Below are positions 1 through 14,702 of a stretch of 64,000 nucleotides of DNA, piece after piece. The notes beneath the pieces were generated by a model that was not told where the DNA came from, did no database searches, and worked only from the letters and a program-made list of their open reading frames with translations. Where the stretch lies: assembly GCF_018977255.1 (NCBI RefSeq), contig NW_024704742.1:70930001-70994000 (forward strand), given 5' to 3'. The translations under genes and the position numbers were made by a program. Each line of letters starts with the position of its first letter. Positions within the stretch are counted from its first letter, which is position 1. This DNA comes from Callorhinchus milii (lineage: Eukaryota).

Positions 1-1112
1 GGGGAGGGGGTTGTGTCAGGGCTGTGTGTGTGTTGGGGAGGGGGTTGTGTCAGGGCTGTGTGTGTTGGGGAGGGGTTGTGTCAGGGCTGTGTGTGTGTGT
101 GTTGGGGGGGGGTTGTGTCAGGGCTGTGTGTGTGTTGGGGAGGGGTTGTGTCAGGGCTGTGTGGTGTGTTGGGGAGGGGGGTTGTGTCAGGGCTGTGTTG
201 TGTGTGTTGGGGAGGGGGTTGTGTCAGGGCTGTGTGTGTGTGTTGGGGGGGGGGTTGTGTCAGGGCTGTGGTGTGGGGATTGTGTCAGGGCTGTGTGTGT
301 GTGTTGGGGAGGGGGTTGTGTCAGGGCTGTGTGTGTGTGTTTGGGAGGGGGTTGTGTCAGGGCTGTGTGTGTGTTGGGGAGGGGGTTGTGTCAGGGCTGT
401 GTGTGTGTGTTGGGGAGGGGGTTGTGTCAGGGCTGTGTGTGTGGTGTTGGGGAGGGGGTTGTGTCAGGGCTGGGGGGGGGGGGGGGTTGTGTCAGGGCTG
501 TGTGTGTTGGTGGGGGAGGGGTTGTGTCAGGGCTGTGTGTGTGTGTGTTTGGGGGGGGGGTTGTGTCAGGGCTGTGTGTGTGTGTGTGTGTTGGGGAGGG
601 GGTTGTGTCAGGGCTGTGTGGTGTGTGTTGGGGGAGGGGGTTGTGTCAGGAGGGGGTTGTGTCAGGGCTGTGTGTGTGTGTTGGGGAGGGGGTTGTGTCA
701 GGGCTGTGTGTGTGTTGGGGAGGGGGTTGTGTCAGGGCTGTGTGTGTGTTGGGGAGGGGGTTGTGTCAGGGCTGTGTGTGTGTGTTGGGGAGGGGGTTGT
801 GTCAGGGCTGTGTGTGTGTGTTGGGGAGGGGGTTGTGTCAGGGCTGTGTGTGTGTGTGTGTGGGGAGGGGGTTGTGTCAGGGCTGTGTGTGTGTGTGTTG
901 GGGAGGGGGTTGTGTCAGGGCTGTGTGTGTGTGTGTGTGGGGGAGGGGGTTGTGTCAGGGCTGTGTGTGGTGTTGGGGAGGGGTTGTGTCAGGGCTGTGT
1001 GTGTGTGTGTTGGGAGGGGTTGTGTCAGGGCTGTGTGTGTGTGTTGGGGAGGGGGTTGTGTCAGGGCTGTGTGTGTGTTGGGGAGGGGGTTGTGTCAGGG
1101 CTGTGTGTGTGT
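1..1112. repeat. G-rich minisatellite, ~33-39 nt unit GGGGAGGGGGTTGTGTCAGGGCT(GT)nT, roughly 30 copies, runs off the window start
   Basis: Directly visible tandem units with a constant core and variable (GT)n length; it explains the three long low-complexity ORFs at 11-1362. Confidence 0.97.
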
Positions 1113-1309
1113 CGGGTGTTGTGGTTTATGTCATTTTCCTGAAAGCATTGTGTCCTTCTTCATGTCATCCGCTCACAATGCTTTGTATTACAAATACAAA
1201 ATTATATCTCTGTCGCGCCTTTCACATTGGGAGGATGGGAGGTGCTGGACAGTCAGCGATCCGGTTTGGGGTGTGGTGGGTGTTGGGTGCAGGGAGGGAT
1301 GGGATTTGT

Positions 1310-1625
1310 GGAGTCCTGTAGCTCAGTGGTTAGAGCACTCACTTTGTAAGCGAGAGACCTGAGTTCAATTCCAGGCAGAGGGTGAAACCTTGGGCAAGTT
1401 TCCTTACTCCACACAGAGCGTAATAATAATCCCTCCAAAACCAAAAAACAATAATAAATTGGTCACTTCAATCCACGACTGTTTGTGGGACATTGCTGTG
1501 CGCAATTGGCTGCTGCGTTTCGCCCACAAATATACAGTCAATTCACTTTACAGCATATTCTGTGAAGCGCTTTGAGACGTCTAGAAGACGTGAAAAGCGT
1601 TATATCAAATGCAAGGATTATTATT
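1310..1625 (+). mobile_element. tRNA-derived SINE family A, short subfamily (one of many copies)
   Basis: tRNA-like head with A box (TAGCTCAGTGG) and B box (GAGTTCAATTCC), body GGGCAAGTTTCCTTACTCCACAC, L2-like tail, (ATT)n end. Confidence 0.92.
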
Positions 1626-2039
1626 GTAGGGTTGGAGGGTGGCTGAAGGTGTGGTCAAAGAGGACAGTCTTGAGACGTGCCTTGAAGGAGGAAAGGGAGG
1701 GTACGATGCAAAGGGAATGTGGGATGGAGTTCCAAAGGGTTGGGGCAGAGAGGCTGAAGGCTCAACTGCCAATGGTGGGCGTGTTGGGCAGGGACGTGGA
1801 GCAGGCCTACTGAGCGGAGGGCGCAATCGGGTTGATATGTGATTACCAGGGTCACAGAGGTAGGAAGGGGCAAGGCCATGGAGGGCCTTCAAGGCGAGGA
1901 TGAGAATTTTGAACTCTTATCAGGTCTATTTGTATAAAAGGTATAATCGTCTAATTCGTAAATCTGCCTAATTCCTGTTCCAAGAGTTTATATTCTATGC
2001 ACATTTGACATAACTTGGAGTGTGTCCAAGGAGGCTCTG

Positions 2040-2905
2040 GCCCTAAACTTTCAGTCCTCCTTGGACGCTGGAGTGGTGCCGGAGGACTGGAGGATTGCAA
2101 ATTTTACTCCCCTGTACAAAAAATGACCTGGACTTGGGTGTAGGGAGTACAATTCCCAAGTTTGCAGATGATACTAAGCTAGGAGAAGTAGCAAACAGTG
2201 AGGAGGATAGTAGCAGACTGCAAGAGGACATAGACAGACTGGTAAAATGGGCAGACACGTGGCAGATGAAGTTTAATGAAATGCGAAGTGATGCATTTTG
2301 GAGGAAGAATAAGGAGAGGCAATATAAGCTGATGGTACAATCTTAAAGGGGGTGAAGGAACAGAGAGACCTGGGGGTTCATATCAGTAAATCTTTGAAGG
2401 TGGCAGGAGAGGGAGATAAAGCTGTTAAAAAAGCATACGGGACACTAAGCTTTATAAATAGGGGCAGAGAATACAAAAGTCAGGAAGTTATGATGAACCT
2501 TTATATAAAACACTGGTTAGGCCTCAGCTCGAGACTGTGTTCAGTTCTGAGCACTACACTTTAGGAAGGATGTCAGGGCATTGGAGAGGATGCAAAGGAG
2601 ATTTTCCAGGATGGTCCCAGGAATGAGGGACTTCAGTTATCAGGAGAGGCGAGAGAAGCTGGGATTATTCTCCTTGGAGCAGAGAAGGTTAAGAGGAGAC
2701 TTAAGAGAAGTTTCCAAAATTATGAGGGGATTTGATAGAGTGAACAAGGAGAAACTATTTCCACTGGCGGGTGGGTTGGTAACCCAAGTGCACTGGTTTG
2801 AAACAGTTTTTAAAAGAAACAGAGGGGAAGTGAGGAGAAATGTTTTCACACAGCGAGTTGTTCAGATCTGGAATGCATTGCCTGAAAGGGTGGTGGAAGC
2901 TGAAA
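2040..2905 (+). mobile_element. CR1-type LINE ORF2 3' fragment, degraded
   Basis: KFADDTKL reverse-transcriptase motif, RLQEDIDRLVKWA, LFSLEQRRLRGDL, FTQRVVxxWNALP. Confidence 0.93.
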
Positions 2906-3692
2906 GAGGAAGAGTGTTCCAGAGTCATTAAATGTATGGTCCCAACTGATACAACTTATGTGAGATTTATTGTAGAAAGAATATGTATTTCCAGAGCCTA
3001 ATGCCAGAGTCTCAAAGTGCTTCACAGGGAATTACAGGTAACTATAGTTACTGTTTTCGTTTGCACATGAAGCATTCAATAAATCGAATTACTTACATCT
3101 TGGGGATTGGTGGCCAGGACACCGGGAGAGAGAAAAATGCCCTTCTCTTGTAAAAGCTTCTTGGGATATTTATTGCCAATGGAGAGGGTCCAGGTGGAAA
3201 GAGTGAGGACCTTTTTGTTCCTTGTTTCTCACTTCCTTTTGTCAAACTGGCCTTACATGGAAGATGCAAACAGATGATATGACTACACGAATGGTCGCAT
3301 TTCCTGTATTCCATTCTGCATGTTGGTCAATATTCACTGTTCAGTACATACGTTTAGGCTGACGCTCCAGTGCTTTGCTGGGGGAGAGATACATTGCCCA
3401 GGTGCAATCCTTAGGATGAGATGTCAAACCAAGGTGCTGTCTGCACCTTTTCAGTTACAGATCTTACAGATTCTGTGATGTTATTGAAAAAGATAAGGGG
3501 GTTTCTCATGGCATCTTGGTCAGCAATTCCCCAGGTTAGAATGGGGCTATTTGTAGGAAATTGCTGTGCACAAATGTCCAGCTGCGTTCACTTACAGAAT
3601 ACACAGTTAATCCATTTTATAGTAAACTCCTCTGAGACATCTAAATAACGTGATAAGACGCTGTATTGAATGCATGGATTATTGTTTTGCAG

Positions 3693-3775
3693 GATGTATG
3701 CTGAAGGGAGACAGAAAGGAATACAAGTTCAAGGTGGAATGTGGGCGAGCAGCTCACCAGCTTGTTCTGAGAACG
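3693..3775 (+). CDS. npm1: Nucleophosmin-like (NPM1 paralog, probably npm4-type) coding exon 2: (G)CMLKGDRKEYKFKVECGRAAHQLVLRT
   Basis: ttttgcag|...|gtgag; 83 nt, phase 1 to 0; aligns by eye to NPM1 [27 protein letters not shown]. The symbol denotes the family; orthology is uncertain. Confidence 0.93.
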
Positions 3776-4764
3776 GTGAGCCCCAAATGTACCTACATCA
3801 ATTCCAGGAAGGGCGAAACCTTGGGTAAGTTTCCTTACTCCACACACCTAATAATAATCCCTCCACAACAATAATAAATTGGTCAATTTTAATCCACGAC
3901 TGTTTGTGGGACACTGCTGTGCGCAATTGGCTGCTGAGTTTCGCTCACAAATATACAGTCAATTCACTTTACAGTCTATTCTGTGAAGCGCTTTGAGACG
4001 TCGGGAAGACGTGAAAAGCGCTATATCAAATGCAAGGATTATTATTATTATTATCACAGAATAAGGGGACTTTTGTTTCCCTTGTTGGTTTGTAAGTTGT
4101 AGGGGGCCATCTTGTATGGTTAAATTCACAGGTGATCATAACATGGTCCCAGAGCGCTTAACGTTGGCAGAGCCAGGGGTAGAGGGTGTGGGGAGGTGGG
4201 AGTTGACTGTAAGAATGACCAAAAAAAAGGTTTTTAGTCGGGATTTGAAAGTGGGAAGGGAGGGGGCAAGGCGGAGGGATTGGGGGACAGAGCTCACTTA
4301 CAAAATATACAGAGCTTCGGGGCATAGTGGTTGAAAGCACAGCCACCGATGGCCTGAGCCAGCCGAGCGGAGGCAACGGGTGATGGAGTGGAAGATGAAC
4401 AAATTGGAAAGCTAGGGAGGAGTGAGGGCATGAAGGGATTTGAAAACGATTCAAATTACCTCACGTGCACGCGCATCAATGGTGGACCTGATGTGGTTTG
4501 CCCATCACCCGTTGCCTCCATCACCCGTTGCCTCCGCTCGGCTGGCTCAGGTCAAGCCTGAAGGCCTTTCTCTTCGACCGTACCCACGGTCACCTCCCCC
4601 ATCCTGTGCGTCAGAGTCTGCCACTTTCAAGTGCTTTGGGATGTTAGCCTGGGTGAGGGGCGCTATATAAATGCAACTTGTTGTTATGGATGTTTGTGAA
4701 ACTTTGTAGACAAATGGCTGTTGCGTTTTACTGACAGTCACTACACGCAATTGCTGCAAAATGT

Positions 4765-5570
4765 TCTGTTCGACCCTGAGCTGTCCTTTCTTCCTCATAT
4801 CCGCGCCTTAACTGGCACCGCCACAACTGGCACCGCCTTCCATCACCTCCGGAACATCGCCAGACTACGGCACTACCTCACCCCTCACGCGGCTGAAACT
4901 CTGGTCCACGCCTTTATCATCTCAAGGCTGGACTACGGGAACTCTCTCCTCGCCGGCCTTCCCGGCACCTCCCTCCACACTGCAGGTCATTCAGAACTCT
5001 GCAGCTCGTGTACTGTCCCGCACCAGGCTTCGGGACCACATCACTCCCACCCTCGCTCGCCTCCACTGGCTCCCCATCCCCCAGAGGATCGAATTCAAGA
5101 TCCTCATCCTCACCTACAAGGCCATTCACGGCCTCGCTCCCTCCTACCTCTCCGACCTACTATCCCCCTACCTACCTGCCCGTACCCTCCGTTCCTCTGG
5201 CTCCGGTCTGCTCCACATCCCCCGCCCCAACCGCCCTACCATCGGTGGCCGGGCCTTCAGCCTCTCAGCCCCGAGGCTCTGGAACTCTATCCCCCAGTGC
5301 CTTCGCCGCCTCCTCCCTTTCCTCCTTCAAGGCCGGTCTCAAGACCTTTCTCTTTGACCGAGCCTTCAGCTCCTCTCTCGACTCTCTACCCCCTCCTCGC
5401 TCCCTCCCTTCCCCCCCTCACCCTGACCATTTCCCCCCTCCTCGCTCCCTCCCTCCCCTCCCCTCACCCTGACCATTTCCCCACTGTTCGGGTCCCGACC
5501 CAACTGTCCAGCGCCTTGGGACGTCCTCCCGACGTGAAAGGCGCTCTATAAATGCAATCTTGTTGTTGTT
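4765..5570 (+). mobile_element. L2-clade LINE 3' fragment, relatively young (CpG-rich)
   Basis: HLRNIARLR...ETLVHAFIISRLDYGNSLLAGLP motif, 3' stem-loop and (TTG)n tail. Confidence 0.93.
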
Positions 5571-6169
5571 GACCTGAAGGTAGGAAAGGTGGGGGCAAGG
5601 CAGAGGAATAGAGGGAGAGTATTCCAGGGTTTCGGGGCATAGTGGCTGAAAGTACAGCTTAGATGAATGATCAAATAAAGTTAGGATGTTGACCAGGACA
5701 CTGGGGAAAAACTCAGGTCCCTTTACAGAGTGTGCAATGGAGCAAACTGCCTTCTGAACCAATTTACCTGTGATTCCTCTGTTGTAGTATCTGCTTGTTA
5801 CCACCAGGTGGCTGCCTTGTATTACTTGGGCATCAGGTAAAATCAGACCTCAGAATTCTCCAGATCTTAGTCTTTAGACCATTGGTTTAAAGCCATTGTG
5901 AAGAAGATTTGAAAACCTGTTCAATTTGGTCTAATTTCAAAGCCAGTTTCTATTTCTGTAAATGTACGTGGCTTCAAAACTGAATCTTCCAAAACTCCCT
6001 CTGATTTCTTACGGACGAAAAATAGAGCAGCTTGTATTTATATTGGTTTTTTTTGCTCATCACGGGATGTGAGCCAGGCAGTGTCGGAATTAATAAAGCT
6101 GGTTTACGGACCAATAGATAGCTGGTTCAAATCCTGGCGGTTTCATGGGCTATGTCGGGAGGCTGAATT

Positions 6170-6978
6170 ATAACAATAAACTTTGCATTTGATATAGTAC
6201 CTTATCATGTCGTTGAGAGACGTCTCAAACACTTCACAGAATATGTTATAAAGTGAATTGACTATATTTTGTGGGCGAAATGCAGTAGCCAAATGGCACA
6301 GCAGTGTCCTGCAAACAGTTGTGGATTGAGTGGATTTTTTTTAAGGGATTATTACACCCAGGAAATGATCCGCCAATCAACTAACAACCAGGTAGTCCTG
6401 TGGAGTAGTGGTTAGAGCACTCAAGCAATAGGACCCGGGTTTGATTCCTGAGGGGGTGAAACCTTAGGCAAGTTTCCTTACTCCACATGTTCTGTTTACC
6501 TAGCAGTAAGTCGGAACCTGGTTGTTAGTCGATTGGCGGATCACTTTCAGTAATAATCCCTCCAAACCCATGACTGGTTGTGGGACACTGTTGTGTGCAA
6601 TTGAAGATGTGATAAGGCGTTATATCAAATGTAAGGATTATTATAATAATTAATAATAAAATAATAATTATTAATAATTATTATAATAAGCGCTTTGAGA
6701 CGTCTAGAAGACGTGAAGCGTTTTTCACGTCTTCTAGACGTCTCAAAGCGCTTCACAGAATATACTGTAAAGTGAATTGACTGTATATCTGTGGGCAAAA
6801 CGCAGCAGCCAGTTGTGCACAGCAGTGTCCCACAAACAGTCGTGGATTGAAATGACCAATTTATTATTGTTTTTTTTTCTTGAGGGCGTGTGGAGTAAGG
6901 AAACTTACCCAAGGTTTCACCCTGCCGGGAATTGAAACCAGATCTCTCGCTTGCTCTAACCACTGAGCTACAGGACTC
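6170..6978. mobile_element. Cluster of three family-A SINEs (-, +, -) just upstream of Npm exon 3
   Basis: Head, body and tail motifs recognisable in alternating orientation. Confidence 0.85.
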
Positions 6979-7026
6979 CCATTATATTTATAGGAGGGTT
7001 TTCTTGACTCTTTGCCCTGTGTGTAG

Positions 7027-7146
7027 GTGTGTGTGGGCTCCGAGGCCAAAGATGAGGTACATCTGATCGAGCTGGAAGCCATGAACTCGAGCGGGAAAAT
7101 GACCAAAGTGCCTTTAACCACTCTGAGACCCTCAATCCTGACCACA
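7027..7146 (+). CDS. npm1: Nucleophosmin-like exon 3: [40 protein letters not shown]
   Basis: tgtag|...|gtaagt; 120 nt as in NPM1 exon 3; matches [40 protein letters not shown]. Confidence 0.96.
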
Positions 7147-8226
7147 GTAAGTGTCTCTGCTTCTTGCACTAGTAGTTTACACCCACCATCTGGGTTCCAT
7201 GTCTTCACTAACAGACTCCTGGCTCCCATCATAGCCACAATTTACATTTGTATAAACAACAACTTGCATTTATATAGTGCCCTTTGCGGGGACTAGCGTT
7301 CCCTGCGTATACAAATATACATTTGTATATCACCTATAGCACATCCAAAGCTGGACACTCAGGGATTTCCACCTGAGCTGGGGTTAGGATCAGGAGGGGT
7401 GGAGAGGAGGAAGGGTGGGTGTAGGAGAGTGACTGTAAGTGTGATCAAAGAGGAAGTTAATCTAGATAAAAGCTCTCTGCCCTATCAACGCCCCACCCCG
7501 GTCTGGGTCTGAGTCTTGCATGTCACTCCACAGAAGCTGTACAGGTGAAGCAGGCCCTTTGGCCCATTTAGTTCTGTCCTTCAGTCCTTCCATTCCTGCG
7601 ACAAACTGGTTTTCGATGAGTCCCAGAGTCCCTGCCTCAACTTCTGTAACTTCCGTTCCAACTGTCGATTTCCATTTTTGTGTAAAGAAACACTTCCTGG
7701 TGTCTGAACTAAACTTGTCCTTCACAGCCCTGAACCATGAAATGAGCGACCAGCTTTATCTGGGGATTGTTGGCCAGGACACCAGGAGAGATAAACTCCC
7801 TTCTCTTTTTGAATAGGATCTTTAAACTCTGGAACTTTCACACTGAATCCCTCCACCTTGCCCCCTCCCTTGCCACTTTCAAATCCCGCATAAAGATCTT
7901 CCTTTTTGAATGTGCTTACTGTCACCTCTCTCGCCCCTCTCCCCTTGGCTCAGTGTCAGACTCCGCCACTGTCAAGCACTCCCGACATTACCCCGCGTGA
8001 AGGGCACTTTATAAATACAAGTTGTTGTTTAACGTTCTCATTCTTTGTTTGGAGTCAGCACACGGTGTGAGGAAATCTTGCTTTGTGTATATAGTTTGGG
8101 ACACGACATGTCAAATGATTACCAGGATGGTGGACCCTACCCCGCGTGAAGGGTGCTATATAAATGCAAGTTGTGGTTGTAGATGGACCGTGGTCTTCTT
8201 TCGCCTAACAAAGTCTTGTGTTTCAG

Positions 8227-8320
8227 ATGAGTCTGGGAGGGTTTGAAGTGTCGCCTCCGGTCTCGTTCCACCTGAAATCTGGCTCGGGTCCTGTCTACAT
8301 CAGCGGAGAGCACATCGTGG
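8227..8320 (+). CDS. npm1: Nucleophosmin-like exon 4: [31 protein letters not shown](G)
   Basis: tttcag|...|gtacgt; 94 nt; contains the nucleoplasmin-core GSGPVxISG signature. Confidence 0.97.
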
Positions 8321-9946
8321 GTACGTTTCCTGCTCCTCAGTGACTGGCTCTGATTGACTGTACAGGAAGTCCACAAAGTCCTGTTACCCCTGTACTGAAG
8401 TGCTTCTAATACAATTATCATTTTTTCATGTGTTTCCGTTGTTGGTCAGTGCACTGTAAAAAAACAAAACACATGGGGTAACATGTGGACACCATGTGCA
8501 CAGTCCACATTGATTGGGGGCTGTTTGTAAAGCTCTACTCTCAGTGTTTGGGGATCGGGATGAATGATCAACTGCCTTTTCAGTCCCTGAGGACCCTGCT
8601 GTCTATTACTATAAGATGCTAGAAGTCTGAGCACTAAGGTTTTGGAGAAAAGGTGAGAGACTGGGAGTAAATGATCTGTGGTGATAAATGGGGTATTATT
8701 AATCTGAATAATAATGCTTGCATTTGTATAATGCCATTCACATTGAGAGGATTTCTCGAAACCCTTCACGGGATTTACTGTGAAGTGCAGTGACTGTGTC
8801 CTACAACCAGTTGTGGATTGAGTGACCAAATATATTTGTTTTCTTTTGGATGGATTATTAACCCCGGAAAGTGATCCACCAATCAACTCACAACTGGGTT
8901 CCTACTTACTGCTGGATAAACAGAGATGTGTGGATTAAGGAAACTTGCCTAAGGTTTCGTCCTGCCTGGAAATCGAAGCTGGGTCCTCTCGCTTGCGAGG
9001 CGAGTGTTCTAACCAATAGGCTACAGAACGCCTCTGTTTTGGAGTGTCAGCCTAGACTGAGTTCAGAGTCTCAACGTTAAAGTTTAAACCCACTACTTTG
9101 TGACTCGGAGGCCAAAGTAGTACCTGCTGAGCCAGGCTAACACCAATATTAGGTTTTCAATGTTGTTAAGTTGTTCAATATAAAATAAAGTAGCCCATTG
9201 AAACTTTTAATCTCAGAGCATTTACAGGGTGAGGGTGGGGGGAGTGGGGGTGTTAGAAAGAGTAAGAAAGAACTTGCATCACTTAGAAACATCTCAAATA
9301 CATTCTTGCTCACATTGTATTTGTCAAGTGTAGTGACTGTTTTTGAAAGCAAGAGTGGTAGACTTTTTTTTGGCACAGCAGGGTTCCCACAAAGAGCCTT
9401 GGGGTGACTGGCCAGATTTAGTGTGGAAGATTGTTGGCTGGGACATTGAGAGACACTAATGATGTATTGGGGTAGAGCAATTCATTGTCTTGTGAGAGGA
9501 GCCAGTTGTATATCTTGACAGATCTATAATAATAACAATCCTTGCATTTGATATAGCGCCTTATTTCATTGTTGAGAATCCTCAATGCACTTCACAGGCT
9601 ACACTGTAAAGTGAATTGACAGTATATTTCAGGGCGAATGTGTCAGCCAATTGTGCACAGCAATGTCCCACATACAGTCTTGGATTGAGTGACCAACTTT
9701 TTTTGAGGGATTATTACCCCTGAAAGCGATCTGCCAATTGACTAACAACCAGGTTCCTACTTACTGCTGGGTAAACAGTGGCGTGTGGAGTAAGGAAACT
9801 TGCCTACGGTTTTGCTCTGCCTGAGAATGAAACCTGTGTCCTCTTGCTTGCGAGGCGAATGCTCAACAACACAGCTACAAGTGATCTGCGTGCTTTATGA
9901 TGGTTAAACTATATTCCTCTTTATCTGCCTGTGCCAATGGCTTCAG

Positions 9947-10311
9947 ATTGCTTGAGCAGTGGACGGTTGCGGGAATGGAACAGGCCATGCAATACAGTGG
10001 CTTTGCACCTTGCTCTCTCAGAGCACCGACCACAACACCCTGCTCCCCCAGCTCGAGCCGATGGAGTGAAAAGTTCTTCCCTTGTCAAACCGCCAGGCCC
10101 ACCAAGGCACTGAGGCGGGACGTGCTGCTCCCAGATCCCGAGGGTTTGCGACGATCCAGAATCGCACAACTCGTGTCATTCCAGGATTCGACTGGATTTC
10201 CACCACTCCAGGATCCACTCATTAAAAGAGGATATGCAGGAGGATTTCTTACCATTGACACCCTGGAGGGAGATGATTCCTATGTTGCTGGTTGCGTCAG
10301 AAATCATTCTG
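9947..10311 (+). pseudogene. Nested exon-like segment A of an unidentified gene or pseudogene in Npm intron 4 (ATG at 9975; MEQAMQYSGF...VAGCVRNHS)
   Basis: Pyrimidine tract plus ttcag acceptor, ctg|gtgagt donor, open frame throughout (ORF 9897-10397), no resemblance to the local repeats. Confidence 0.55.
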
Positions 10312-11131
10312 GTGAGTCTCTGTGCGTCTGTCTGTTTGTATTGCATGCGTTAAGGAAATTTAAAAGAACAGTCTTGGCCACAAGCCTGGACACCTGAAAT
10401 TCCACCTCATCTCAGCTTGCGAGACCTCTTTTTTAAGTTTCAGATTTGGTCAGGATTCTGTGTTTTTTAAAAAAAATAATATTAATGATGATCCCTACAT
10501 TTCACGTCGCGAGGATGTCTGAAAGCGCTTCCCAGGATATTTTGTAAACCAGACATTATGTATTTTGCAGGTGAAACCGGCAGCCAATTTGTGTACAGTG
10601 ACATCCCACAAAATTCCATCCTTCGGATGAAATGTTAAACCCACCTTCTGACTGCCTGTTCAGGTGGATGTTAAAGATCCCATGTCTCTATTGGGAAAAG
10701 AGAAAGGAGTTTTTCTCCCCTGGTGTCCTGGCCAACAATCCTTCAAATACAATTGGTCACTCACTCCATGGCGTTTCACCCACAAAACATATAATCACTC
10801 CCACTTTACAGTATATCCTGTGAAGTACTTTGAGACTTATCAACAACCTGATAAGGTACTATATGAAAATCCAAATATTATAAAATGCAACCTGAATTTG
10901 GAAGCCACTCAGCTCCTTTTTAAGAACTGCAGGAAACGACACCCGAGTGAAGACTGAATATAAGATTTTCTTAAATTATTCTCAGAGCACCTGGTCTCAC
11001 AGGCCGACTAAGTGATATTCAGGTGTGGGGGAAGTGTACCATCTTGTGCAATATCTCTGTTGCCAATTGATACTAGAATTGTTCCATGCTGTGAGTATAT
11101 GCTGTTCTCAGATCTTGTTCTGTGCCTGCAG

Positions 11132-11318
11132 GTGAGGCTGGATATCATGGATGGCGAGGGTGGCTATGAGCATTGAGGAGTTTCAAGAGTAACTGTTTTG
11201 GCCAATGGCACATTGAGCACCGGGCATATTGCTTTGAGAGAATCACACGAGAATGACGCACTCCATCTGAGGACATGGTGTGGCGTGGCCAGCGGAGGAG
11301 CAGGATGGATGTCTTTCT
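11132..11318 (+). pseudogene. Nested exon-like segment B: GEAGYHGWRGWL*ALRSFKSNCFGQWHIEHRAYCFERITRE*RTPSEDMVWRGQRRSRMDVF(L)
   Basis: cctgcag acceptor and ct|gtaaga donor; read in the phase left by segment A; in-frame TGA at 11167-11169 and 11254-11256. Confidence 0.5.
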
Positions 11319-11460
11319 GTAAGAACAGATCAGTGGTGCTGATTTTATCTGGGCCATCCTTGGCCAGGCAATCAGGAGAAACTCCCTGCCCTTTTCGATC
11401 AGCATCGCGGGATCTTTAATGTCTACCTGAACAGGCGACAGATGGGATCTCAGTTTAATG

Positions 11461-13412
11461 CAGGGGAGGCAAAATATGGCCCACGGCCATATCCAGCCCG
11501 CCAAATGATTCTGTCCGGCCCTGTCTAGCAATAGAAAAAATTATAGTTTGTTCAGTCAGAAAGTCGCACAAATTTCACACTTGAATCAGACCAGAAACAT
11601 CAGCGAATCACACTGCTTAGTCGTGCACACGCTCCCTTAAGTGTTGAATCAGGCTGACGTCAGAAATGTACGGATCGGCAAATTTTCAAACGCGTGTGCG
11701 GTAACTGGCAATACGTTTCACTGAAATGGACGTTAATTCAAAATGAGTTTATCAAAGAAGCGGAAAATGGACGCTGAAGGCTGAATAATCAACAAAGAAT
11801 AGACTTCTACATTTTTTTTGCCAATGTGGGTGGAAAATAAAATAAAATAAATTAAAATGAAATAAATAAAGAAAATAAAACAGTGTGTAGTTACAAAATA
11901 AATTACAAAAATTGCATGTTTTTCACTGGCACTCGATGAAAGTCGTGATGTCAAAGACACAGCCCAGTTAATAATTTTTATTCGAGGTATCACCAAACAT
12001 TTTGAGCTCACAGAAGAATTGGCATCAATGCAGTCAATGAAAGATATAACAAGTGGAGAAGACTTTTTGGAGGCAGTAAATAAGTGTATCCTAAAATTAG
12101 AATTGTAGTGAAAAAAATTGGTGAATGTGACCACCGATGGAAGCCCAAATCTGACAGGCAAAATGTTGGGTTACTGAAAAGAATTCAAGATCAAGTCAAA
12201 GAAACAAATCCAGAACAGAATACTATTTTTCTACACTACATTATCCACCAAGAGGTCCTCTGTAAGAGTGTTCTAAAACTAAGCAATGTCGCGGACACAG
12301 TTACGAAAGTTGTTAACTACGTTCGAGCAAGAGGATTAAACCACAGGCAATTTGTAACTGCTTGAGGAATTGGAATCCAAGCACATGGATGTAAGATGGC
12401 TTAGTTTAGGAAAGGTCTTGAAAATAGTGTGGGAACTGAGAACAGAGACTGATTTATTTTTGGACATGAAACAAAAAGGTTCAGATTTCCCACAGCAGAA
12501 TGATGCAAATTGGCTCTCTGATTTCACATTTGCTGTTTATATCATGGGCCACATGAATGAACTGAATTCAAAGCTGCAATGGAAGGGGGCCTTTGTGCAT
12601 GATTTGTATTGCAGTTTCAAGTCATTTATGATGAAATTATTTCTTTTATTGCATCAGATAGGAAACAGGCAGTTTGCCCACTTTCCAAATTTGCAGCATT
12701 ACTGTTTGCGATCACAGCCTTAAAAAGTATACTTTATCACTACTTGACTTGCATGGCGAATTTTCTCGCCGATTCCAGGATTTCAATTTGATCGAAAATG
12801 ACCTGTCTTTGGTCTCTTCACCATTCTCATTTGATGTTGACAAAGCCCCATTTGATCTCCAACTCGAGCCTATTGACCTGCAATGTGATCCATTGCTTGC
12901 GGACCAATTCAAATCAGTGCCGCTTTCCAGTTTTTACGCCTCTCTTAATGAATATACCTTTCCAAAAATAAAGGCTCATGCCCGGAGGGTACTTGTGCTG
13001 TTTGGATCAAAATGCATATGGAAGGAGACATTTTCTGTGATGAAATTCAATAATTCAAAATCCAGATCTGTGATGACTGATGACCACCTTGCAGCAGTAC
13101 TCTGCATTGCAACAACGGAGACAATGCTTGACTTCAGTTGTCTGGTTAATGCACATCAGCGCTCTCATTCATCCCATTGAGTGAGCTTCTCACATTCTTA
13201 TCAAAATGTGAATAAATTAATAAATATCGAATAAACGTCTGCTCCCTGAGTTTTTATTTAACCTAATTTTAGTGAATGTCTATATACTTTATTTTGTGTA
13301 TGTACAAGTGTAAGATTTGATTTTGAGCTATTATTAAGCATTTGCATCTATATTAAGTGTGTGGCCTGCTATCAAAACTCGTGAAGTGGTCGCCAGACAA
13401 AATAATGGCCTG
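11461..13412 (+). mobile_element. Decayed hAT DNA transposon (SPIN/Buster/Charlie-like, GTF2IRD2-type transposase), internally deleted and frameshifted
   Basis: Starts CAGGGG, ends CCTG, flanked by GTTTAATG / GTTTAACA. Transposase motifs SKKRKMDAEG, FSLALDES, LHYIIHQE, VRWLS and the C-terminal FGS...FSVMK...DDHL dimerisation region lie between 11742 and 13180. Confidence 0.93.
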
Positions 13413-14228
13413 GTTTAACATCTCCTGAAGGATGGTGCCTCACACAATACAGCGCTCCCTTGAATGGTGGGCCTAGACTGTGAGCTCAAAGTCCTCATGT
13501 GGGGTTTGAACCAACAACCTTCTGCTTCATATAGGTGTTTCCCCAACATTTCCCTCCATCGTCTCACCCCACCTTACTTCTGTGACCTCCTTTAATCCTA
13601 CCAACCTGGCTCAGTGTGTGCTTCATGTCTCTTACCTAATTCCCCCCCCACCATCCCTCTGACTCAGTGTCCCTCTTCCTTGCCCCCTCTCCCCACCTTT
13701 AAAACCCTTCTTAAGACCTATCTTTTGACCACGCTTTTGAACCCCTTCTTTATCCCTCCCCCTGACAAAATGCAAATGTTGGCATCTAAGTCAGGCTCTG
13801 CCACCTCATGTGTTTATAATAATAATCCTTGCATCTGATATAACTCCTTATCACACTGTTGAGACGTCTCCGAGTGCTTCTCAGAATCTATTGTAAAGTG
13901 GTTGACTTTTTTTGAGGGTGAAACGCAGTAACCAATTGTGTACAGTAGTGTCCCATAAAGATCTGTGGATCAGCTGACCAAATTTTTCTTTATACAACGG
14001 ATAGTATTATTCCTGTTCCTCTCTCTTTCCCCCACACACCCGGTCCTAAGCACGTGTATCCAATCACATTGCTAGTCCAGTGTGGCATAGTGTTACCTCC
14101 ATGTTTTTTTTCACTGAAACATGTGGAAGCATGATGATAATTGTATTTAGAAGATTAAATACAGTTAAACACTTGTACTGTATACAATGAAGTACTTGTA
14201 TACAGTATAAGCGTTTAACTGTATTTAG

Positions 14229-14390
14229 ACATCCAGAGGATCGGTCATTTGCATGGCAGATAATGATCAGATCCATCGCCATGTTCGGTGTGACATCTTC
14301 AGAAATATGGATGGAGTGAGGAGGAAGTTACTGGTGTCAGACATAGTTACACTCAACTCATCTGTGACAGAAAATAAATATTCATTGTAA
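14229..14390 (+). pseudogene. Nested exon-like segment C: HPEDRSFAWQIMIRSIAMFGVTSSEIWME* (stop 14317-14319; a second frame is open to 14390)
   Basis: tttaac...tttag acceptor; phase-2 entry matches segment B; AATAAA at 14373-14378. Confidence 0.4.
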
Positions 14391-14595
14391 GAAGGAAAAC
14401 AGAGGTGGGTAACAGGACTTTGTGAACAACCTGCATGTGGTAATCTGGGGTGTGGTCTGACACATCTCGAGCCTGATTTGGTGTGATTAAAGAACCTGGC
14501 TGCTGAATGGCTCAATGGCTGGTTTTGATTTGAGCCTCTCTCCCGGTTTTGCCTGGATGCCCTGCCCTCACTGTCTCCTGGTTTCCTGTTTCTAG

Positions 14596-14702
14596 GGCTG
14601 CCCGAGTCGGAGTCGGAATCTGAGGAGGATGGTGACAGCTGTGCCATGAAAAAAATGCCCGTTAAACGTGAGTCACCCCCTGGTGCTCTACACCCTTCGA
14701 AG
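14596..14702 (+). CDS. npm1: Nucleophosmin-like exon 5: LPESESESEEDGDSCAMKKMPVKRESPPGALHPSK (A2 acidic tract, first half of NLS)
   Basis: tttctag|...|gtaggg; 107 nt, phase 1 to 0 as in NPM1 exon 5; ESEED and KRxxPG motifs retained. Confidence 0.92.

What the first reader, a model, noticed from the sequence alone, without database searches (positions are those of the whole stretch)
9947..14390. Hidden three-exon gene or recent pseudogene nested on the same strand inside Npm intron 4
Seen: three islands of unique sequence among repeats, with canonical splice signals (9947-10311 ag/gtgagt; 11132-11318 ag/gtaaga; 14229 onward ag, AATAAA at 14373). Joined from a strong-context ATG at 9975 (GGAATGG) they read MEQAMQ...LQDPLIKRGYAGGFLTIDTLEGDDSYVAGCVRNHS-GEAGYHGWRGWL*ALRSFKSNCFGQWHIEHRAYCFERITRE*RTPSEDMVWRGQRRSRMDVF-LHPEDRSFAWQIM..., about 200 aa, unrelated to Npm or to the transposons here. 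Established: NPM1 exon 4 splices directly to exon 5, and I know of no gene nested there. Inference: an unannotated nested gene, probably recently disabled. I cannot identify the protein family.
Basis: partly seen in the sequence, partly recalled or inferred. Interest (0 to 1): 0.85.

Follow-up and report, generated by a model that had tools for sequence, protein, structure and literature searches.

The report
Chance ORF, real cryptic intronic splice
The supposed hidden gene inside a nucleophosmin intron is ordinary intron DNA with a chance open frame and a transposon as its "last exon", although one of its predicted splice joints is really used at a very low level.

Summary
The stretch lies in the nucleophosmin intron 8321-14595. 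RNA contigs of 4 of 4 runs join 8319/8320 directly to 14595/14596.

What holds up:
- The ATG-9975 frame is open for 112 codons.
- The splice-like signals are where stated.
- Islands 1 and 2 are single-copy.
- One RNA contig joins 10310/10311 to 11131/11132, GT..AG.

What fails:
- "Exon 3" with its AATAAA lies inside a dispersed MITE-like repeat, 1154 first-look candidates.
- The frame stops 12 codons into "exon 2".
- Contigs read through the proposed acceptor 9947 and donor 11318.
- The peptide has no credible relative, domain or fold. A control shows that chondrichthyan gene models are in the library.
- One animal's RNA carries a stop at codon 29.
- An open frame this long is expected about once per window by chance.

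Verdict: this is not a protein gene or pseudogene. The one real feature is a low-level internal splice, most likely noise or nested splicing on the abundant host pre-mRNA. Interest is low.

The parts
8227..8320 (+).
   Evidence: Pfam PF03066 match at window 8215-8319. RNA contig joints 7146>8227 and 8319>14595 (cut +1), GT..AG, in 4 of 4 runs.
8321..14595 (+). Host intron that contains the whole finding
   Evidence: Joint 8319>14595 'skips 6275, GT..AG (cut +1)' in X1, X2, X5 and X6.
9526..9888 (.). SINE copy directly upstream of island 1
   Evidence: Repeat families D7, D4, D20 and D17 with 7-16 copies in the window.
9889..10497 (+). Unique island 1. Holds the chance open frame (stop-to-stop 9885-10397; ATG 9975 to donor 10311 = 112 aa).
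   Evidence: frame. (single copy). (no relatives). (contigs 9903-10310 and 9867-10183 run through the proposed acceptor at 9947).
10059..10061 (+). Codon 29 (CGA) of the open frame. C>T at 10059 in the X2 contig makes it TGA.
   Evidence: table 3: 10059 C>T, X2 9.04 of 9.04, X1 0 of 5.69. The codon position follows.
10312..11131 (+). 820-base piece removed by the observed internal GT..AG splice. It contains a SINE at about 10498-10890.
   Evidence: X6 record 26 joins 10263-10310 to 11131-11285. The G at 10311 and the G at 11131 are interchangeable, so this is the GT..AG joint 10311>11132. SINE families D10, D19, D6 and D14.
10891..11340 (+). Unique island 2 ('exon 2' 11132-11318). The frame from island 1 stops after 12 codons and there is a second stop further on.
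   Evidence: single copy. (stops). X1 record 6 covers 11131-11430 and so reads through the proposed donor 11318. X5 record 20 and X2 record 13 cross 11131 unspliced.
11460..13200 (+). Decayed non-autonomous DNA transposon, hAT-like
   Evidence: 281 first-look candidates. The 39 long other-locus copies scored are 85-90% identical. Weak Pfam hAT dimerisation match, E 0.057, below the cut-off.
14114..14436 (.). MITE-like dispersed repeat that contains all of 'exon 3' (14229-14390), its acceptor and its AATAAA
   Evidence: 1154 candidates, with the 40 other-locus copies scored at 76-84% identity; the copies extend over 14114-14438 and have inverted matches at their ends; hairpin at 14147-14236, with only sub-threshold miRNA-model scores.
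14596..14702 (+). Next nucleophosmin exon (acidic tract)
   Evidence: Joint. Translation.

Best explanation
This is ordinary DNA of nucleophosmin intron 4: two single-copy stretches between SINEs, a decayed hAT-like transposon and a MITE-like repeat. The 112-codon frame (170 stop-to-stop) is a chance open frame and makes no conserved protein.

The one functional-looking element is a strong donor (CTG|GTGAGT at 10311/10312, one of only two GTRAGT in the intron) paired with a strong acceptor (pyrimidine tract plus CAG|G at 11131/11132). The spliceosome uses this pair at low frequency and cuts out 820 bases. I infer that this happens on the very abundant host pre-mRNA, as nested or cryptic intra-intronic splicing or as a rare unproductive isoform.

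Shown: the joint, the read-through at the other proposed boundaries, the repeat nature of 'exon 3', and the lack of relatives. Inferred: that the spliced RNA is a by-product of host transcription and has no function of its own.
For: 1. 'Exon 3' is a repeat: 1154 first-look candidates, with the 40 other-locus copies scored at 76-84% identity. The copies share ends beyond the 'exon'.
2. The frame ends 12 codons after the verified joint. The product is at most 124 aa.
3. Contigs cross 9947 (X1 9903-10310, X2 9867-10183) and 11318 (X1 11131-11430) without a break, so the proposed outer exon borders are not used in the main form.
4. Contigs on the proposed exons have depth 4.6-10 (records 5, 6, 12, 13, 20, 26). 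Contigs on other unique parts of introns 3 and 4 have depth 2.6-6.8 (records 1, 2, 3, 8, 10, 11, 15). Npm mRNA contigs have depth 75-288. The tool warns that contig depth is a poor measure.
5. Unspliced contigs cross 11131 in X2 and X5.
6. No relatives were found. Pfam: 0 families for P0001 and for 8 other island frames. Own genome in six frames: only itself and one match at E 5.5. 5.8-billion library: 6 and 129 candidates, none at E<=1. 1.84-billion library: 1 hit, judged spurious. Atlas: no usable hit.
7. The control search with Npm exon 3 finds the Callorhinchus milii and a shark nucleophosmin, so chondrichthyan gene models are in that library.
8. C>T at 10059 turns codon 29 into TGA in the X2 contig.
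9. The frame length is expected by chance, 0.91 per simulated window.
10. AlphaFold2 on the single sequence gives mean pLDDT 33.8. This is weak evidence.
11. If the RNA starts at or before 9867, three ATGs (9897, 9900, 9937) precede ATG 9975.
Against: In X6 the spliced contig (depth 5.49) is somewhat deeper than the bins of other unique intron parts in that run (0-3.2). A stable spliced RNA is therefore possible.

The joint appears in two studies of different years: directly in X6, and indirectly in X1 through contig breaks at exactly 10310 and 11131. So the event is reproducible and not a one-off error.

Island 1 has somewhat raised CpG (o/e 0.57 against a window median of 0.41) and GC of 0.54.

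No genome of a related species could be searched, so conservation of the islands is untested. Contigs cannot show strand, ends or full-length molecules, and 471 joints were not displayed.
Confidence: 0.7

Rival explanations
1. The joint belongs to a functional non-coding or unproductive RNA. This would be either an independent low-level intronic lncRNA on the + strand, or a minor Npm isoform that includes these pieces as poison or decoy exons and so tunes Npm output.
For: The GT..AG joint is seen in RNA from two studies. The donor is one of only two perfect GTRAGT in the intron, and the acceptor is strong. In X6 the spliced form is the only form listed at that place. If exon 4 were joined to 9947, the Npm frame would stop at 10114-10116, as expected for a poison exon. 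Decoy exons and intron-embedded splice sites are described in human genes (PMC7373989, start of abstract in the listing; PMC4482092, abstract).
Against: No joint from exon 4 to 9947, or from 11318 onward, is listed. Contigs run through both places. The depth equals that of the rest of the intron in X1 and X2. There is no CpG island. Conservation is untested.
Confidence: 0.17
2. It is a young, lineage-specific (orphan) protein-coding gene. A two-exon RNA would encode a 124-aa protein with no relatives.
For: There is an open frame with ATG in GGAATGG context. The joint is verified and keeps the frame for 12 more codons. Both islands are single-copy.
Against: The frame length is at chance level. 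There is a nonsense variant at codon 29 in X2. Upstream ATGs lie at 9897, 9900 and 9937 in RNA that contigs show to extend to at least 9867. No confident fold. Recognition score of 1694 is below the level that 91 in 100 known-family proteins reach. Depth is at intron level.
Confidence: 0.05
3. It is a recently disabled pseudogene of an older three-exon gene.
For: Stops appear only from 'exon 2' onward, and splice-like signals are present at all proposed borders.
Against: No parent or paralog in the same genome. No homolog in libraries that do hold chondrichthyan gene models. 'Exon 3' is a transposon copy. The outer borders are read through in RNA.
Confidence: 0.03

Closest known systems
Nested splicing / intrasplicing (internal donor and acceptor within one intron used before the canonical sites), as described for the human dystrophin transcript (PMC4829307; passages read)
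   Same: Both splice sites lie inside one intron of the host gene, on the host strand. The joined product is rare. The canonical exon-exon joint is the main product.
   Different: In the DMD study only 23.6% of nested events were GT-AG, and the introns are very long. Here the intron is 6.3 kb and the pair is a strong canonical GT-AG. It is not shown here that the joint sits on host pre-mRNA, and no lariat was seen.
Splice sites embedded within introns / intermediate intron splicing in human genes (PMC4482092; abstract read)
   Same: Low-level products from intron-internal sites of active genes, at a fraction of primary-transcript level.
   Different: Those products join the upstream exon to intronic acceptors. 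No such exon-4-to-intron joint is listed here.
Same-strand nested protein-coding genes in introns (general concept, recalled)
   Same: Location and strand. One internal splice joint.
   Different: No intact multi-exon frame, no homologs and no expression above intron level. The last 'exon' is a transposon copy.
MITE-type non-autonomous DNA transposons (for 'exon 3')
   Same: Short element of about 320 bases, over a thousand candidate copies, inverted matches at the ends of copies, internal hairpin.
   Different: Target-site duplications and the autonomous partner were not looked for. The left inverted end was not found in this copy.

Membership tests
Nested protein-coding gene | One open frame running through all proposed exons | tested here: not met
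   The joined frame stops 12 codons into 'exon 2' and four more times after that.
Nested protein-coding gene | Homologs or a recognisable domain | tested here: not met
   Searches gave none. The single hit is a bacterial MucBP repeat protein that matches 33 residues eight times. A control shows that chondrichthyan gene models are in the library.
Nested protein-coding gene | All exon junctions seen in RNA | tested here: inconclusive
   10311>11132 is seen (X6 record 26). 11318>14229 is not among the 15 joints shown, and 471 were not shown. Contigs read through 9947 and 11318.
Nested protein-coding gene | Conservation of the frame in related species (dN/dS below 1) | not testable with these tools
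   No related eukaryote genome is held: 'It has no relatives here'.
Pseudogene (duplicated or processed) | A parent gene or paralog | tested here: not met
   The six-frame search of the own genome found only the locus itself and one match at E 5.5.
Nested (intra-intronic) splicing | Donor and acceptor both inside one host intron, on the host strand, joined in RNA | tested here: met
   GT at 10312 and AG at 11130-11131 lie inside intron 8321-14595. The contig joins them.
Nested (intra-intronic) splicing | The joint is carried by host pre-mRNA (flanking intron still attached, or an internal lariat) | tested here: inconclusive
   Contigs with or next to the joint extend into flanking intron sequence (9867/9903 upstream, 11430 downstream). 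Contigs cannot show whole molecules.
Poison or cassette exon of Npm | Junctions from the flanking constitutive exons into the cassette | tested here: not met
   No 8320>9947 joint is listed, and contigs read through 9947. The in-silico frame would give a premature stop.
MITE-type repeat ('exon 3') | High copy number of a short element | tested here: met
   1154 first-look candidates, with the 40 other-locus copies scored at 76-84% identity over about 240 bases.
MITE-type repeat ('exon 3') | Terminal inverted repeats and target-site duplication | tested here: inconclusive
   Inverted matches of the 3' end lie upstream of copies L006 and L008. TSDs were not examined.
MucBP domain (Pfam PF06458) | Score over the Pfam cut-off | tested here: not met
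   P0001 matches no Pfam family at E<=1. Single-repeat BLASTP scores are 28 bits or less.

The most novel reading that the evidence does not exclude
A spliced two-exon RNA born inside nucleophosmin intron 4 encodes a lineage-specific 124-residue orphan protein, or acts as a regulated decoy or poison unit for the host gene. This would be a de novo gene caught early, still segregating a nonsense allele.
Probability: 0.05. Interest if true: 0.45.

Novelty: new member of a known kind. Interest (0 to 1): 0.15.

Why it matters
It matters little. The case shows how an intron of a highly expressed gene can imitate a gene. It has a chance open frame in the only unique DNA between repeats, consensus splice signals at chance density, and even a genuine splice joint at pre-mRNA-like depth. 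For annotation, no protein-coding model should be placed here, and the AATAAA 'terminal exon' belongs to a transposon. If the rare spliced RNA proved stable and conserved, it would be one more example of intron-internal splicing in a housekeeping gene. That would be of modest interest.

Tried and rejected
1. RNA holders. The look-up of sequencing runs listed no holder on record as RNA. The runs laid are called RNA only because their contigs carry the Npm exon-exon joints. Parts without cover are not used as evidence.

2. Joint 11318>14229. It is not among the 15 joints shown, and 471 were not shown. I do not count this as absence. The read laying cap (1 call) prevented a second look, a look at DNA runs X9-X12, and a narrower stretch.

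3. The phmmer hit P0002 (E 1.1e-10). It is a 1812-aa bacterial surface protein with 16 MucBP repeats. The score adds up eight weak matches of one 33-residue piece, each 28 bits or less. I rejected it as a repeat-inflated chance match.

4. Rfam over the intron. It gave only sub-threshold miRNA-model scores on the MITE hairpin and one tRNA-like SINE head. There is no structured RNA in islands 1 or 2.

5. CpG island or promoter at island 1. The o/e is 0.57, below the window's 90th percentile of 0.67. Rejected as an island.

6. AlphaFold2 without an alignment and the ESM Atlas. Neither gave a signal, and both are weak tests.

7. Earlier notes of this scan. Nothing at this place and no look-alike stretch. 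The five notes on this genome concern other loci.

8. Literature. 'NPM1' + 'nested gene' + 'intron' returned 4 papers, none on this by title or abstract start. 'Callorhinchus milii' + 'nucleophosmin' returned 2 papers, both on citrullination. In these searches no nested gene in this intron is in print.

9. Conservation across species. No related eukaryote genome is held, so this was not tried.
Full report
**Setting.** The window is G000:C1:70930001-70994000 of a 991.5-Mb eukaryote assembly. It is dense in SINE copies. Pfam Nucleoplasmin (PF03066) matches window 7024-7164 and 8215-8319. The 40-residue translation of 7027-7146 is 98% identical to a UniRef entry named nucleophosmin of Callorhinchus milii, and 80% identical to 'nucleophosmin 1b' of a shark.

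RNA-type contigs of 4 of 4 runs laid (X1 and X2 from one study, X5 and X6 from another) join 7146>8227 and 8319>14595, both GT..AG, the latter with 'cut +1'. The Npm exons here are therefore 7026-7146, 8227-8320 and 14596-14702. The finding (9947-14390) lies wholly in the intron 8321-14595. The exon before 7026 ends at 3774.

**The observation.**
- The frame from ATG 9975 to 10311 is open, 112 aa. Stop to stop it is 9885-10397, 170 aa.
- All stated signals are present: AG|9947, CTG|GTGAGT at 10311/10312, CAG|G at 11131/11132, TCT|GTAAGA at 11318/11319, TAG|A at 14228/14229, AATAAA at 14373.
- The joined reading is not a 200-aa protein. It stops 12 codons into 'exon 2', once more in 'exon 2', and three times in 'exon 3'. 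The longest product through the first joint is 124 aa.
- Two of the three 'unique islands' are unique: 9890-10400 and 11100-11340 each match only themselves in the genome.
- The third island is not unique. Window 14193-14433 had 1154 first-look candidates, and the 40 other-locus copies scored are 76-84% identical.
- Against seven fetched copies, the similarity runs over about 14114-14438. Inverted matches of the 3' end lie upstream of two copies. The start of the element forms a hairpin at 14147-14236 that reaches only sub-threshold miRNA-model scores. This is a MITE-like repeat, and the 'acceptor', the 'exon' and the AATAAA all lie inside it.
- Between islands 2 and 3 lies a decayed hAT-like element at 11460-13200. 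It had 281 candidates, and the 39 long other-locus copies scored are 85-90% identical. Its Pfam hAT dimerisation match is weak, E 0.057.

**Chance.**
- In 100 first-order Markov simulations of the window, the mean number of stop-to-stop frames of 170 aa or more was 0.91, and 62 simulations had at least one.
- The real sequence has 12 such frames, mostly in repeats.
- GTRAGT occurs 47 times on the + strand of the window, 0.73 per kb.
- An open frame next to splice-like signals is therefore not in itself more than chance.

**RNA evidence (contigs only, one call allowed).**

- X6 record 26 (203 letters, depth 5.49) lies on 10263-10310 and then on 11131-11285. Because 10311 and 11131 are both G, this is the predicted GT..AG joint 10311>11132.
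- In X1, record 5 covers 9903-10310 and carries 30 further letters that do not lie on the genomic continuation.
- X1 record 6 begins exactly at 11131. These are the breaks expected where a spliced and an unspliced path meet.
- Neither island has a second genomic copy. A DNA copy lacking the 820 bases elsewhere in the genome is therefore excluded. A deletion allele at this locus was not tested.

- X1 record 5 and X2 record 12 (9867-10183) pass the proposed acceptor 9947 without a break.
- X1 record 6 runs through the proposed donor 11318 to 11430.
- X2 record 13 (10809-11296) and X5 record 20 (11082-11283) cross 11131 unspliced.
- No 11318>14229 joint is among the 15 shown, with 471 not shown.

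Depth:
- Contigs on the proposed exons have depth 4.6-10.
- Contigs on other unique parts of introns 3 and 4 have depth 2.6-6.8.
- The Npm mRNA contigs have depth 75-288.
- The tool warns that contig depth is a poor measure, so I use this only as a hint. It suggests that the islands are covered like the rest of the intron, that is, like pre-mRNA.
- A UniRef model of this gene (P0003, 121 aa) itself runs from exon 4 into the first codons of this intron. Intron-containing RNA of this gene was evidently abundant enough to be modelled.

**A nonsense variant.**
- table 3 lists 10059 C>T in the X2 contig (9.04 of 9.04). X1 has C (0 of 5.69).
- Position 10059 is the first base of codon 29 (CGA, Arg) of the frame from 9975, so the variant reads TGA.
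- It is a CpG transition.
- Telling a segregating allele from an RNA-level change needs DNA from the same animal.
- Either way, an animal expresses this stretch with the frame closed at codon 29.

**Homology and fold.**
- Pfam: no family for the 112-aa peptide at E<=1. There were only noise-level matches for the 170-aa frame and none for eight other frames of the islands.
- Own genome, six frames: the locus itself plus one match at E 5.5.
- 5.8-billion-protein library: 6 candidates (near lengths) and 129 candidates (longer), none at E<=1.
- 1.84-billion representatives by phmmer: one hit, E 1.1e-10.
- That hit is a 1812-aa bacterial protein with 16 MucBP repeats and a KxYKxGKxW signal peptide. 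It matches one 33-residue piece of the query eight times at 28 bits or less each. I regard it as a repeat-inflated chance match.
- ESM Atlas: no usable hit, recognition 1694.
- AlphaFold2 on the single sequence: mean pLDDT 33.8, with no residue over 50.
- The control shows that the library holds chondrichthyan gene models, so the blank has some weight.
- No related eukaryote genome could be searched, so conservation at the DNA level remains untested.

**Other checks.**
- Island 1 is not a CpG island. Its o/e is 0.57, against a window median of 0.41 and a 90th percentile of 0.67.
- If the RNA extends to 9867, as the contigs show, ATGs at 9897, 9900 (in frame) and 9937 (out of frame, 58 codons) precede ATG 9975.
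- If Npm exon 4 were ever joined to 9947, the Npm frame would stop at 10114-10116. No such joint is listed.

**Explanation.** I put about 0.7 on the following reading.
- The finding is ordinary intron DNA with a chance open frame.
- Its one real feature is a strong donor, one of only two GTRAGT in the intron, paired with a strong acceptor 820 bases downstream.
- This pair is spliced at low frequency on the abundant host transcript.
- This works like 'nested splicing' or 'intrasplicing', in which internal sites of an intron are joined before the canonical sites are used (PMC4829307, passages). It also resembles the low-level use of intron-embedded sites in many active human genes (PMC4482092, abstract).
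- Membership in that class is only partly tested. Both sites are internal and are joined in RNA (met). That the joint sits on host pre-mRNA is inferred from contigs that run on into flanking intron, and is not shown.

Rivals:
- A functional lncRNA or a poison/decoy unit of Npm: 0.17.
- A young orphan gene for a 124-aa protein: 0.05.

**Novelty and score.**
- The three-exon protein gene is not real.
- What remains is one more instance of a known kind of event.
- Two literature searches found no report of a nested gene in this intron.
- Interest: 0.15.

Noticed in passing
window 1-1400: Tandem array of roughly 34-36-base units (families D1 and D2, 18-19 registered copies) with very strong GC skew (+0.60) and GC of 0.55. 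It yields open frames of 379-453 aa in three + frames. These are a repeat artefact and not genes.
   Followed up: no
window 11460-13200: hAT-like non-autonomous element with at least 281 candidate copies in the genome, many of them sharing the same internal break near query position 427. RNA contigs of depth 80-500 with several mismatches lie on it, presumably from other copies. Its 5' part has the highest CpG o/e of the window, 1.0-1.28.
   Followed up: partly
window 14147-14236: Near-perfect hairpin at the start of the MITE-like repeat. It scores 38.6 bits against mir-5014 and lower against other miRNA models on both strands, all far below the gathering scores.
   Followed up: no
window 6771-6966 and 8320-8360: The UniRef nucleophosmin model P0003 (121 aa) begins with residues that match frames inside a SINE-bearing part of intron 2/3. 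It ends with residues read from the start of intron 4. It looks like a model built on intron-retaining RNA and not like a true isoform.
   Followed up: partly
window 8957-9030 (-): tRNA-model match of 33.7 bits, over the gathering score of 29, inside a SINE copy. It is the tRNA-derived head of the SINE family that fills this window.
   Followed up: no
window 3745-3774: End of the Npm exon that precedes 7026-7146, located from the loose end of the mRNA contigs of X5 and X6. That intron is about 3.25 kb.
   Followed up: partly
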